From assembly GCA_050575255.1 (NCBI GenBank), contig JBNZDD010013534.1:994328-1058327 (forward strand): 64,000 nucleotides of DNA. Reading direction: 5' to 3'. The notes below the pieces were generated by a model. The model worked only from the letters and a program-made list of their open reading frames with translations. It was not told where the DNA came from and did no database searches. The DNA comes from Harriotta raleighana (Eukaryota). Numbering within the stretch: position 1 is the stretch's first letter; each line of letters begins with the position of its first letter. Shown in pieces: positions 12,606-55,980 of this stretch. Position numbers and translations under genes: made by a program.

Positions 12606-13228
12606 AAGCCTCCAAATCGACCAACATTGATTTTAAGAAGCTTCAGTGAAGAGCAGCAAGGATGATTTGAAGACGGAATGTTTTAGGGATACTTGGATAT
12701 CCATTTCCCACCTCCATCATTCCTATTTTGTACCTCTCCTTGGTAAGAAATCTGGGTGAGGGTGGCAGGTGTATTAGACCTCACTCCCTAGATACAGGTG
12801 CTCAGTGGTTACTTGAGCAGGGCAGATGGTGAAGCTTCATAGAGATATTATGGATAGATAAGGAGGTGTGATCAGATTTCAAATGCTACAGTTGTTCATT
12901 TTGTTGCTTGTTTTAAAGCCACAAATATATTTAGAAATGCTACAGCTGCATAACCACCAACTCCTTTTTTAAGCTCCTATCAAACACGCCCACAGTGGCA
13001 ACATTGTATAGCAGTTTTAATGTGTTTAATTAAAAATTGAGCTAAACTGGTATTCTCTATACTGGTATTGAAATGCTGGGATCCGCATTATGACAGCTTC
13101 AGAATTGCCTCTGGCTTAATGGCTACTGCAATGGGCTGTGGGCACAACCATTTGGGAATGGATGGGTGAGTAGGTGCGGTGTGGGGAAGGTGGTCATCTC
13201 TAGGAGCAGAAGATCCCATAATGTACTC

Positions 13229-13530
13229 ATAATAATAATAACTCTTGCATTTGATATAGCGCTTTTTACATTTTATCGACGTCTCAAAGCGCTTTGCGGA
13301 ATATTGAATTGAATTGACTGTATTTGTGGGCAAAAGACGGCAGCCAATTGCACACAGCAGTGACCCACAAGCAGTCATGAACTGAAATGACCAATTAAGA
13401 ATATTTTTTTTTTTTGAGGGATTATTGTCAGGTTTATGGAGTAAGGAAACTTGCCCAAGGTTTCGACCTGCTGGAAATCGAACCCAGGTTTCTTGGTTTT
13501 GCAAGGTGAGTGCTCTAACCATTGAGCTAC
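13229..13530 (-). mobile_element. Full-length tRNA-derived SINE with L2-type tail
   Basis: aataataa..ttgcatttgatatagcgc..ggagtaaggaaacttgcccaagg..ggaaatcgaacccagg..gtgctctaaccattgagctac; A and B boxes are recognisable on the minus strand. Confidence 0.85.
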
Positions 13531-14954
13531 ACTCTCGTTTTTATGCCTCAATTAATTTGTACTCATCCATGTTGAATTGCATTTGCCAAACATTGGACCA
13601 GCATCACATTTCTCACAGCATTTTTCATCCCAATAATTCACAAGTCAAAATAACTGAACACCACAATATTTCTCTGATTCTGGACCTTCAGAGAGCCGGG
13701 GACAATGATCATAAAGGAAATTATTTCAGAACTAACTACTTCTAGTCTTGTGATTCAAATCTCTCAATAACTAATCCATGCAATTGACCTGAATACTGAG
13801 AGAACTACTGAGACTGGGGATGTCACAGGAGAGGGCCAGAGTGATAATTTAGTCTGACAGCTTTCTTTGCACCCAATGTGATGCTCGGTAAATTAGACTA
13901 GCAAATGACCCGCTGAAAACAGGTGCGGAACCAACTTTGTGCCTTCCAGGGAAAGACATTGAACACTGTAGAAAGATGCACCTGTGCTATTGTTACCCTG
14001 AAAGAGGGAAGCTTTTAAGTGCAAATGCACTGACATCTGAATAAGCTGATAAAGAACTGGAGTGAATTCTATATCCTTACATCTTCACTTTCCAATCATT
14101 CAGCCTTTATACTAAATTTGCAAATGGGAAATGCTAGGGTCGTTGCACAGATTTAACTTTCTTCGATCCCGATCAATGTATATTCATGGGACACTTAGCA
14201 CATTGCTATTGTACTTCTTTTTCTTTGTTTTATTTTTAGAGGGGGGTGTGCTTCCCCACAGAAAGGATAGGACTCAGCGACAGTGATGGCAACAGCGTAC
14301 ATCACCTTGTAGACTGTTACCGTTGAGACAGTAGTGTAGGCTGTGTGCAATGAAGCATGACAGGGGTAATGTCAGACCATTGGCAGCGTTTCCCATTGAA
14401 GAGAGGTTCAGAGAACGTTTTAGAATGCTGTCCGCACTTTAAAGCTTTTAGCACATCTTTCCAGCGCTCTGATATTATCTTTTGATGAAAGAAAATGTGA
14501 TGGACTTGCATTTTCATCAGTTTCTTTGATAACATAAATTGACTACTCTTCTTCTAAACACAAATTTATACCTTGTAAACCAAAAATGTTCAATTATACA
14601 GCCTTCTGGAAATCAAATACATTGCGATTCCAGTTCATGATAGGTGACTAGGAGGATTTCCAATACAGACTGGAGGTGTTTTCTTCCAACGATTTTTCTC
14701 CTCTTCTGAAGTGTACTTTATATTTCGCCAAAACAATATACAGTCAAATCACTTTACAATTTATTCTGTGAAATGCTTTGAGATGTCTCGAAGAAATGAT
14801 GAGGTGCTATATCAAATGCAAGGATTATTATATTTATTACTATTATTTACTTCAGGTACTTTTACCTTCACACATGTATGATTATTTTCTGAAATCAACA
14901 TGATACAGTACTTAAGCTAGTTTATGCAGTTGGTAATACCATAGCAGTCTTATC

Positions 14955-21900: not shown

Positions 21901-21906
21901 AGCCAA

Positions 21907-22212
21907 ATAATAATCCGTGCATTTGATATAGCTCTTTTCATTCTTCTAGATTTCTCAAAGCACTTCACAGAATAGACTGTAAAGTGAATTGACGGTCTAT
22001 TTATGGGTGAAATACTGCAGCCAAATGGGCACAGCAGTGTTCCACAAACAGATGTGGATTGAAATGACCAATTTATTATTGTTTTTTTTTAGGGATTATT
22101 ATTAGGCGTGTAGCTAGGAAGCTTGCACAAGCTTTCTCCCTGACCTGCCTGGAATCAAACCCAAATCTCATGTTTGTGAGGTGAGTGCTCTAACCATTGA
22201 GCTACAGGACCC
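21907..22212 (-). mobile_element. Full-length tRNA-derived SINE
   Basis: Reverse complement of the 6533 element, from tail to head (gtgctctaaccattgagctacaggac). Confidence 0.85.
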
Positions 22213-41990: not shown

Positions 41991-42078
41991 TCTTTAGGTC
42001 AACCCTGATGTATCTGTTATCAGCTGGTATTATAATGGCAATAACTTGTGCCTACCCATCTTGCCACTCCATGAGGAT

Positions 42079-42325
42079 AATAATAATCCTTTCATTTGAT
42101 ACAGCGCTTTTCACATCATCTAGACTTCTCAAAGCACTTCATAGAATATATTGTGAAGTGAATTGACTGTATATTTGTGGGCGAAATGTAGCAGTGTCCT
42201 ACAAACAGTTGTGGGTTGAAATGACCAATTTTTATTATTGTGTTTTTTTTAATGGATTATTATTAGGTATGTGTGGAGTAAGGAAACTTGCCCAAGGTTT
42301 CGCCCTGATCTGCCTGGATTCGAAC
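42079..42325 (-). mobile_element. tRNA-derived SINE, 5' truncated within the head
   Basis: Reverse complement of the 6533 family, ending at ggattcgaac (B box). Confidence 0.8.
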
Positions 42326-51527: not shown

Positions 51528-51765
51528 GGGGCTAGTCTCTCAATGGCTCAAGGCAAATGAACTATATGGTACATTACTGAACTACTTCTTTAGCGCAGCA
51601 CAGTATGGCGGTAGTGTGTTACTATTTGGTTCAGTGACCCTGGTCAGTAACCAGCTGAAGTATTTGTGCAGCATTGATGTGTGCGGAAACGTTTGGCCTC
51701 AGCTGCGATGCTCCCACAACCAATTAGTCCAGGTGGCCACTAAGCCAAGGTATCAGACTGCTGCT
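51528..51765 (+). mobile_element. Ancient SINE-like element (AmnSINE2-like by recollection)
   Basis: ggggctagtctc..tggctcaaggcaaatg..tactgaac..cagtgaccc..ctcagctgcgatgctcccac..ggccact..aaggta. Confidence 0.45.
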
Positions 51766-52266
51766 TCCAATGAGCTATATTAATAATCACCATAATCCTT
51801 ACATTTTACGTGCCTTTTGATGTCAAGAGAAAGTCTCAAAGCTCAAAGATTTTATTGAAATTGTAGTGACTGTGGAATATGTAGATAAACTTGGTAGCAC
51901 GTTTTGCAAACATCAATGTCCAACAAATAGCATGAAGCAAATAACCAATTTTATTTGGGGGATTATCGGCCAAGACAGCACGAGAAATTTCCTTTTCTTT
52001 TCGAATAGTTTCTTGCGACATCCTGAACAGTCAGACGGGAACTTCAATCAATCAATCAAAACTTGATTTAACATTGCATTCAAAGAGCGATACCTCTAAC
52101 AATGCAGCACACACCAAGCACACTATTCTGTCAGCCAACATGTTGAGTTAAGAGTCCCAATTTGGGACTTCAACCCGTGGACTTTCTGACTCAGCTGCGA
52201 TGCTCCCACAAACAATTAGTCCAGGGACTAATTGGTTGTGGGAGCATGGACTTTCTGACTGAGCCA

Positions 52267-52645
52267 AAAACAGAGAGCTGGGAAAACTCAGCAGGTCAGG
52301 CAGCATCTATGGAGAAAGGAAAGTGAGTCAACATTTTGGTTCACGACCTTTCGTCAGAACTCACACATAATCAAACACAAGGAGGAAAACAGATAGTGGG
52401 GAGGGGGAGCAGGGCAGAAGGGAGGAACAAAAGTTATGTCGAAAAAAACAGAACTTCTTCGGGGTAGGTATTCCTAGAAGAGAAGTGGCAGTGAGTCAAA
52501 CATAAACAAAACACAAAATACTGCAGATGCTGGAAATCTGAAACAAAAACAGAAGTTGCTGGGAAAACTCAGCAGGTCAGACAGCATCTATGGAGAAAGG
52601 AAAGTGAGTCAATGTTTCGGGTCCACGACCCTTCGTCAGAACTGG
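52267..52645 (-). mobile_element. Non-autonomous mini-Penelope: two direct terminal repeats, each with a hammerhead motif, and an 8-bp TSD
   Basis: Direct repeats at 52267-52341 and 52508-52645 (ctgggaaaactcagcaggtcag..ggagaaaggaaagtgagtcaa..cacgacc..tcgtcagaact); ctgagcca at 52259-52266 and 52646-52653. Confidence 0.8.
52604..52645 (-). ncRNA. Minimal type-I hammerhead ribozyme motif
   Basis: Minus strand: AGTT CTGACGA A GGGTC GTG GACCC GAAA CATT GACT. Core intact, perfect 5-bp stem II, stem I AGUU/GACU; stem III palindrome altered (CGTT to CATT, consistent with CpG decay). Confidence 0.65.
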
Positions 52646-53539
52646 CTGAGCCAGGCTGATATCTGACACCTGATGCCCAGCACAAGTCAACACGTACAAG
52701 AGAGTGAGGGAGGAACTTGGGCAAAAATTTAAAAATGCACAACGGTTGCTTCATTCCTTCCAGCAGAACTGAAGTAGTGTGTGCAATCCTGTGACACATC
52801 ATTACAATAAACTTCAAGCTACCCTCTTCCCTGAAATGACAGTAAGAACACACAACTCTGGAGACACAAATACAGAAAGTTTGCATTTTACTCTGAGAAC
52901 TTGCAAACACATTTTGTATGTAACCCTTACTTTCCATTTTGTGCACATTCTCCAGAGGACAGCAGGGCATTGGGCATCGCATGTGAATCAATGGATGGAA
53001 TCATTCGCGCAAATCACCTTTAAAAGCATCAAAACAGAAATACTGTAGTATGATGATCCTCTGGGAGTTTTTCTATTTTCCAACATTCGGGGGCCTAAGT
53101 GGAATGAAGGCCATTGATGGGTGGAAGTGGGAGAGAGAGTAAGGAGCAAGGGCATGTAGGAAAATGTCACAGATGTATGGCTAACACATAGATTTCTACT
53201 ACATGAACATTGAGACCTTCACATCCCGATGACTGTGTAGTCTGTATTCCAGCTCCAATGTAGTCTAGTGGCACAATGGGATCAGGTTCGTAACACATGT
53301 AAGGAGACCTGGGAAGAGCAATGGAGTTGCTACAGGAGACAATGCTGTTGGTTGTTAGGGACATCTACATGAATAGTGTTACCTGGTGCTCAAGATAAGC
53401 CTATTGAAACATATAGACTTTGCCACTTATTAACTCAAGCATTTTTTTCATAAACAGATAAACACCTTTGACAAACTGCACATTCACGTCTCTCACCATG
53501 GCTTGAGGATTATAGCTAGTGAGTACTCGAACTCTACAG

Positions 53540-55674: not shown

Positions 55675-55980
55675 TATTAATAATAATCCTTGCATTTGAT
55701 ATAGTACTTTTCACATCTTCTATAAGTCTCAAAATGCTTCACAGAATATACTGGAGAGTGAATTGACTATATAAATAGTGGGCGAAACGTGGCAGCTAAT
55801 TGCTCACAGTACTGTCCCACAAACAGTTGTGGGTTGAAAAAAACAGTTTATTACATTTTTTGATGGATTTTTATCAGGCATATGGAGTAGGGAAACTTGC
55901 TCAAGGTTCCACCCTAAATGAAATCGAACCTGATCTCTCGCTTGTAAAGCAAGTGGTCTAACCACTGAACTACAGGACTC
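55675..55980 (-). mobile_element. Full-length tRNA-derived SINE inserted within a Deu-SINE cluster (55440-56090)
   Basis: taataatccttgcatttgatatag..ggagtagggaaacttgc..atcgaacc..tctaaccactgaactacaggactc. Confidence 0.85.

What the first reader, a model, noticed from the sequence alone, without database searches (positions are those of the whole stretch)
52267..52645. Retrozyme-like mini-Penelope with two tandem hammerhead-bearing terminal repeats about 281 nt apart
Seen: a ~380 bp non-coding insertion with an exact 8-bp TSD (ctgagcca) and two direct repeats. On the minus strand the upstream repeat reads AGTT-CTGACGA-A-GGGTCGTGGACCC-GAAA-CATT-GACT, an intact hammerhead core. The second reads GTGAGTT-CTGACGA-AAGGTCGTGAACC-AAAATGTT-GACTCAC, with a 7-bp stem I but the G of GAAA lost. 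Established: Penelope-like elements carry minimal type-I hammerheads that work as dimers through a palindromic stem III, and metazoan non-LTR retrozymes are short tandem hammerhead units that release circular RNAs. Inference: this is an internally deleted Penelope that moved as a small ribozyme-bounded unit, and the ancestral form would have released a ~281-nt monomer. I am not aware of such a family being described in chondrichthyans.
Basis: partly seen in the sequence, partly recalled or inferred. Interest (0 to 1): 0.7.

Follow-up and report, generated by a model that had tools for sequence, protein, structure and literature searches.

The report
One-off short Penelope double-end insertion
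The two hammerhead ribozyme motifs are real but decayed end repeats of a very common Penelope-type jumping gene, likely stitched together once during copying, and nothing found shows a multiplying circular-RNA element.

Summary
In detail: a 379-bp insertion, an 8-bp duplication, and two hammerhead-bearing repeats whose cut sites lie 281 nt apart. The retrozyme reading does not.

The insert is the front 283 nt of a Neptune/Nematis-type Penelope element (pLTR, tail, 5'UTR, about 36 codons), one extra G, then a second pLTR piece. Its junction 17-mer has 2 exact matches in the genome, and the other is an inverted arm; the pLTR has 1,807 exact 29-mer matches. Loci with nearby breaks have other junction letters and form no clade. 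32 same-strand pLTR pairs are 50-1,230 nt apart, with no equal-unit array.

In 86 unbiased pLTR copies the 5' ends pile up at the hammerhead's first base and none begins at the first base after the cut. So the template was probably uncleaved RNA, with a likely capped start behind a TATA/Inr-like motif. The downstream core has lost G12, so no monomer can be released today.

Most likely: reverse transcriptase ran off the RNA 5' end and re-primed on element RNA, once. This scan found the same kind of thing before in other shark-like genomes, and a 2026 preprint already lists retrozymes in one chondrichthyan.

The parts
52646..52653 (.). Target-site duplication at the element's 5' side (ctgagcca); possibly 12 bp with one mismatch (52642-52653)
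   Evidence: D19
52503..52645 (-). First pLTR with tail: family positions about -2 to +141; +1 (A of AGTTCTG) = 52643
52607..52643 (-). Upstream minimal type-I hammerhead: 4-bp stem I, intact CUGACGA and GAAA, 5-bp stem II, stem III palindrome decayed to ACAU; predicted cut between 52611 and 52610
52363..52502 (-). Contiguous 5'UTR and start of the parent ORF (likely start codon at 52471-52469, now ATA; about 36 codons); no internal junction
52362..52362 (-). Junction: one G absent from most parent copies, between parent position ~+283 and the second +1
   Evidence: one parent copy, L014, has G here
52267..52361 (-). Second pLTR piece, +1 to about +99, ending at the first of the family's two 3' end clusters (no tail)
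52323..52364 (-). Downstream hammerhead: G12 changed to A, stem II shortened, stem III AUGU, stem I lengthened to 7 bp by the junction; predicted cut between 52330 and 52329
52259..52266 (.). Target-site duplication at the element's 3' side; its first two bases on the minus strand (TG) also fit the element's TTTTTG end

Best explanation
This is one old, decayed insertion of an abundant Neptune/Nematis-type Penelope-like element, made of two pieces of the element's 5' region that were likely joined once by a reverse-transcriptase jump. Inferred steps: (1) RNA starts at the hammerhead's first base, behind a TATA/Inr-like motif, and stays uncleaved. (2) The element's RT primes on nicked target DNA at the internal start site near +99 and copies to the RNA 5' end. 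(3) The cDNA end, carrying an extra C or CA, re-primes at a UG-rich spot near +283 of element RNA and again copies to the 5' end. (4) Repair leaves the target duplication. Shown: the two-piece anatomy, the junction not shared by other loci found, the family end clusters and the decayed downstream core. Today the locus could at most be cut once and cannot release a monomer.
For: The spacer is contiguous parent sequence that runs on into an RT + GIY-YIG ORF in other copies. Unbiased set of 86 pLTR copies (94 anchors, 8 copies of one segmental duplicate dropped): 40 simple, 34 with an inverted arm, 11 running into the parent 3'UTR, 1 same-strand tandem. 26 of 40 simple copies start at -4..+6, 0 of 86 at +34, 0 between -6 and -38. 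3' ends of 84 cluster at about +91..109 and +129..146, none past +151. Where the body breaks and rejoins element sequence, 15 of 24 other loci rejoin at -3..+2 (hand tally; window and the two loci found by a junction query left out). Base before AGTTCTGACGAAGGGTC genome-wide: C 954, G 188, A/T 158. G is 54% of non-parent bases against 25% expected, and 39 of 47 simple G-class copies have T before it. G lies outside the duplication in 7 of 10 resolved cases. The two halves are 95% alike at non-CpG sites against 86.5 +/- 5.5% for random pairs. Internal RT starts and cleavage-independent insertion were shown in vitro for a lizard PLE (PMC11167929).
Against: No cap or start site was measured; +1 as the transcription start rests on motif likeness and the G excess. 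The same -38..+2 stretch also reads as branch point, pyrimidine tract and CAG. About 5 of the 15 rejoins at +1 sit at a CCC(AG) microhomology near +400, which plain deletion explains too. The loci in that tally were picked for holding the spacer or ORF start, so they are not a random sample. L014 has G at the junction base, so the G may be inherited. Two of the 10 resolved duplications look doubtful. Genome searches score only top candidates and skip common words.
Confidence: 0.65

Rival explanations
1. Ordinary internal deletion: a full-length pLTR-ORF-pLTR insertion lost about 3 kb, by an RT skip or by later microhomology-mediated repair, bringing its two normal pLTRs together.
For: The anatomy (tail on the first pLTR only, duplication around both) is that of a partial tandem (PMC8557442). 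Such deletions are reported in Penelope copies (PMC3846280). 9 of 24 loci rejoin elsewhere: 3'UTR 6, inside the hammerhead 2, mid-ORF 1.
Against: Random deletion does not explain 15 of 24 rejoins within 5 nt of the point where simple copies also begin. The parent has CCCC before +1 and TGTGT at the break, so the window junction has no parent microhomology.
Confidence: 0.22
2. One reading: a non-autonomous mini-Penelope or retrozyme family; dimer cleavage releases a 281-nt monomer that circularises and is reinserted.
For: The size fits retrozyme monomers of 170-400 nt (PMC7229834). Four other loci break within +282..+289 and rejoin near +1 (L005, L024, L297, L298). L297 and L298 share a similar junction. 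The circle folds at z = -1.9.
Against: Exact junction 17-mer: 2 hits, the second an inverted arm. Loose pattern: 1 hit, L005; that pattern does not fit the window copy itself. The +289 junction: 2 hits, 1 in the control. These loci form no clade; the window copy sits with undeleted L016 (84/72, weak), across a 94/96 branch from the rest. No equal-unit array of three or more in 363 loci. Only 52% of the circle is paired, against 49% in shuffles. G12 is lost.
Confidence: 0.04
3. Splicing made the junction: the stretch before +3 is a 3' splice site, as the Drosophila Penelope intron ends at helix I, and a spliced RNA was copied.
For: The parent reads CTAAT, a pyrimidine tract, then CAG before TTCTG. 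The intron end at helix I in D. virilis is stated in PMC4209133.
Against: The breaks checked by eye (window, L010, L013) do not read as exon end plus GT donor. The window keeps the AG that splicing would remove. 17 of 27 simple copies keep +1 and +2.
Confidence: 0.04
4. Two independent insertions, a short pLTR landing next to an older piece.
For: pLTR stubs are very common: 4 loci in this window, 4 in 160 kb of random stretches.
Against: One duplication brackets both pieces and there is none at the junction. The halves share subfamily letters and are closer than about 95% of random pairs.
Confidence: 0.03

Closest known systems
Endonuclease-bearing Penelope-like elements, Neptune/Nematis type, with pLTRs, 30-40-bp tail, partial tandems and inverted 5' copies (PMC8557442, PMC3846280; passages read)
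   Same: RT followed by GIY-YIG with a CX4CxxC linker in the parent; pLTR with hammerhead; ~35-nt tail on one repeat only; 8-12-bp duplication; inverted arms in 34 of 86 copies; TATA/Inr-like motifs at the pLTR.
   Different: Here almost the whole ORF is missing, and both repeats start at the hammerhead's first base. Neptune versus Nematis was not resolved by a tree.
Minimal hammerheads of metazoan PLEs (Cervera and De la Pena 2014, PMC4209133; parts 1-2 of 4 read)
   Same: Short stem I, a bulged base after the CUGANGA box, palindromic 15.2-16.2 positions, mostly single truncated copies.
   Different: Stem II is 5 bp (7-8 bp in the Schistosoma examples); both window copies are decayed.
Metazoan non-LTR retrozymes (PMC7229834, parts 2-3 of 6 and passages; bioRxiv 10.64898/2026.07.22.740005, parts 1-3 of 5)
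   Same: Two type-I hammerheads in tandem about 280 nt apart; pLTR origin.
   Different: Not a repeated fixed monomer, no multimers found, 1.3 units only, second core incomplete, not highly self-paired, no RNA evidence.
Poseidon element of Anolis in vitro (PMC11167929; parts 1-2 of 4 read)
   Same: Two internal RT start sites that bound the tail; hammerhead cleavage not needed for insertion.
   Different: Different clade. The sections read do not describe a fixed 5' end with extra (T)G, or re-priming.

Membership tests
EN+ Penelope-like element (Neptune/Nematis type) | Parent ORF with RT and C-terminal GIY-YIG | tested here: met
   L032 runs from pLTR through RT motifs to the EN piece. GIY-YIG Pfam E 4e-4 and 4e-3 in family copies, below the curated cut-off. 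426 relatives, most listed ones with PF00078, best 66% to a bamboo shark protein.
EN+ Penelope-like element (Neptune/Nematis type) | CX2-5CxxC linker between RT and EN | tested here: met
   CX4CxxC in L032, L252, L255; definition
EN+ Penelope-like element (Neptune/Nematis type) | pLTR with hammerhead and optional 30-40-bp tail | tested here: met
   3' end clusters near +99..105 and +136; tail on the first window repeat only
EN+ Penelope-like element (Neptune/Nematis type) | Clade placement by RT phylogeny | not tested
   no reference set of named clades in hand
Minimal type-I hammerhead | Core CUGANGA...GAAA...NUH with stems I and II | tested here: met
   met by the upstream copy; the downstream copy lacks G12
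Minimal type-I hammerhead | Self-cleavage as a dimer | not testable with these tools
   The only arrangement with an intact core (upstream core on the downstream site) is 9.9 kcal/mol above the minimum-energy fold.
Non-LTR retrozyme | [quoted passage not shown] | tested here: not met
   1.3 units; second core incomplete
Non-LTR retrozyme | Multi-copy family of one monomer, in dimers and multimers | tested here: not met
   searches are lower bounds
Non-LTR retrozyme | Highly self-paired monomer | tested here: not met
   52% paired against 49% in shuffles, z -1.9
Non-LTR retrozyme | Expressed as circular RNA | not testable with these tools
   no suitable raw reads were offered

The most novel reading that the evidence does not exclude
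Penelope RT routinely runs off the capped 5' end of uncleaved RNA, gains a C(A) overhang and re-primes on UG in element RNA. This makes short two-hammerhead units of many lengths, sometimes with a lengthened stem I (7 bp here against 4 bp). That would be the birth step of non-LTR retrozymes, and this locus a newborn unit that could have released a 281-nt RNA when young but never multiplied.
Probability: 0.3. Interest if true: 0.5.

Novelty: new member of a known kind. Interest (0 to 1): 0.2.

Why it matters
The locus itself is a dead footprint. The family statistics are the useful part. Ends pile up at the hammerhead's first base, not at its cut site, and carry an excess of (T)G. That is genomic support, in a second clade, for the in vitro finding that Penelope elements start reverse transcription internally on uncleaved RNA. 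It also offers a testable route by which tandem hammerhead units could arise from pLTRs.

Tried and rejected
Rfam scan: no hammerhead hit.

Pfam on 7 short broken ORF pieces: one hit far below cut-off, no PLE domain. The RT pieces also missed.

Intact parent ORF: none in the 3 loci scanned for long ORFs (two carry runs of N). Many EN matches carry stops. The search was not exhaustive.

RNA: no RNA holder listed. Four runs of contigs with a small share were laid. They cover family pLTR sequence, and no listed piece spans the junction. This says nothing on expression.

Fold-back on stem I as the source of the extra G: considered because some inverted copies join there (L052, L175, L182). It is disfavoured because the third base is G in only 3 of 47 and T in 27 of 47, and the cDNA fold does not predict it.

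The two decayed stem III halves (ACAU, AUGU) are complementary to each other. This was rejected as compensation because both variants are common CpG decay products (7 and 12 of 54).

A +400 mini-family: 7 loci, with differing junction letters and no clade (weak tree).

Empty site: the flanks matched nothing else in the fetched loci.

Literature: a search for Penelope + hammerhead + shark gave 4 irrelevant papers; Penelope + Neptune + cartilaginous + retrotransposon gave 1, seen as a listing only. Searches listed no paper on an extra G at PLE 5' ends; the library is partial. The preprint's supplements, which name its chondrichthyan families, could not be seen and may already hold this family.

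Full report
Observation. The insertion at 52267-52645 is bracketed by ctgagcca and holds two direct repeats, 87.7% alike over 106 nt. Both hammerhead readings are as quoted. The upstream core is complete but its stem III palindrome has decayed to ACAU. The downstream copy has lost G12 and one stem II base. In 54 family copies the changes fall mainly on CpG sites, G12 is A in 9, and 20 keep the whole core, so this is ordinary neutral decay. The duplication may be 12 bp with one mismatch.

What the spacer is. The 141-nt spacer query gave 41 matches among the 40 candidates scored of 114, many over its whole length. So there is no junction inside it. [quoted passage not shown] That marks the Neptune or Nematis type (PMC8557442). 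The best protein relative is from a bamboo shark at 66%, which fits a cartilaginous fish. No intact ORF was seen. The insert is therefore pLTR, tail, 5'UTR and about 36 codons, then one G, then a second pLTR piece that stops at the family's first 3' end cluster.

Is the junction a family? The exact junction 17-mer has 2 matches in 1.1 Gb; the second is an inverted arm. A looser pattern found L005 only, and did not fit the window copy itself. A junction-spanning DNA search gave 5 matches, two of them (L297, L298) crossing a nearby junction. With L024 and L005, four loci break within +282..+289, none with the window's junction letters. They form no clade, and the window copy groups weakly with an undeleted copy. 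For scale, the undeleted read-through 22-mer has 16 matches and an internal pLTR 29-mer 1,807. Among all 363 loci held, 32 distinct same-strand pLTR pairs lie 50-1,230 nt apart, with no array of equal units; some of the shortest pairs contain an N and may be assembly artefacts. These searches are lower bounds.

What sets the ends. I numbered from the A of AGTTCTG (+1); the hammerhead cut follows +33. The unbiased set was 94 anchors picked on the internal 29-mer, less 8 copies of one segmental duplicate. Of the 86, 40 are simple, 34 carry an inverted arm, 11 run into the parent 3'UTR and 1 is a same-strand tandem. 26 of the 40 simple copies start at -4..+6. None of 86 starts at +34 (one at +33, two at +32), and none between -6 and -38. 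Parent bases are kept in 17 of 27 simple copies at +1, 12 at -1 and 6 at -2. The 3' ends of 84 copies cluster near +99..105 and +136, the classic tail, and none passes +151. The template thus kept the hammerhead's 5' half and was probably uncleaved. This agrees with PMC11167929, where RT started at two internal sites and ribozyme mutants inserted normally.

Why +1. The parent has TTAAAA about 29-30 nt before +1 and CCCAGT across it; the TATA and initiator consensus are recalled, and such motifs are described in rotifer pLTRs (PMC3846280). Genome-wide the base before +1 is C in 954, G in 188 and A/T in 158. G is twice as common as chance among non-parent bases, and T precedes it in 39 of 47 simple copies. 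An extra G from the mRNA cap is stated for full-length L1 insertions (PMC11702581, passage). A cap alone does not explain the T; added A residues or re-priming on the UUUG start site would. I could not tell these apart.

Mechanism. Where the body breaks and rejoins element sequence, 15 of 24 other loci rejoin at -3..+2 (hand tally). The window's two halves share subfamily letters and are 95% alike at non-CpG sites, so they came from one source in one event. The simplest account: RT primed near +99, ran off the RNA 5' end, re-primed near +283 and ran off again. The anatomy, the unshared junction and the end clusters are shown; the start site, the cap and the jump are inferred. Against it: about 5 of the 15 rejoins use a CCC(AG) microhomology, 9 of 24 rejoin elsewhere, the sample is biased, and L014 has G at the junction base. 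Plain deletion of a full-length copy remains the main rival.

Could it cut today? The only arrangement with a complete core pairs the upstream core with the downstream site. All 13 pairs form, but the fold costs 9.9 kcal/mol over the minimum and gives one cut, not a monomer. The 7-bp stem I of the second copy comes from the junction letters. The 281-nt circle is 52% paired against 49% in shuffles.

Comparison. It is a member of the PLE insertions with pLTR, tail and tandem arrangement (PMC8557442, PMC3846280) and carries the minimal hammerhead of PMC4209133. It resembles a retrozyme in layout but fails the tests of complete units, a repeated monomer and high self-pairing (PMC7229834). A 2026 preprint already reports pLTR-derived retrozymes in one chondrichthyan, mean consensus 363 bp, and only 1 of 9 Xenopus dimers cleaved; its supplements were not seen. 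Earlier notes of this scan reach similar readings for other loci; I read them after stating my own reading and they are not independent support.

Verdict. Real, ordinary and decayed: a new member of a known kind, interest 0.2. The one forward-looking point is the (T)G-before-+1 signature and the +1 rejoin hot spot, which give a testable route from pLTRs to tandem hammerhead units.

Noticed in passing
window 331-447, 4412-4608, 9982-10171: Three more loci of the same pLTR family: one with the upstream TATA-like stretch, two inverted head-to-head pairs.
   Followed up: partly
window 52178-52264 and 51689-51733: The left flank holds a near-perfect 23-bp hairpin (52200-52247) between short direct repeats, with one arm repeated 492 nt upstream; a local duplication-inversion with no other copy in the fetched loci.
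   Followed up: partly
L057, L059-L061, L067-L069, L075, L091: An inverted pLTR pair amplified within a multi-kb segmental duplicate, 97-99% alike in most copies; three of the loci carry 84-bp zinc-finger-like tandem repeats nearby.
   Followed up: partly
L007, L013, L015, L023, L028, L277, L283: A second cluster of body breaks near +400 that rejoin the hammerhead start, with differing junction letters and no clade.
   Followed up: partly
L297 1530-1545; L298 1530-1545: Two loci share a similar junction at +289; no third exact copy was found.
   Followed up: yes
parent 3'UTR, e.g. window 421-447 (partial) and L103: The 38 nt before the hammerhead read both as TATA plus initiator and as branch point, pyrimidine tract and CAG.
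   Followed up: partly
window 6533-6848, 13227-13531, 21905-22210, 42077-42325, 55675-55980: An unrelated dispersed repeat of about 310 bp, roughly 75% identical, present in many copies in the window.
   Followed up: no
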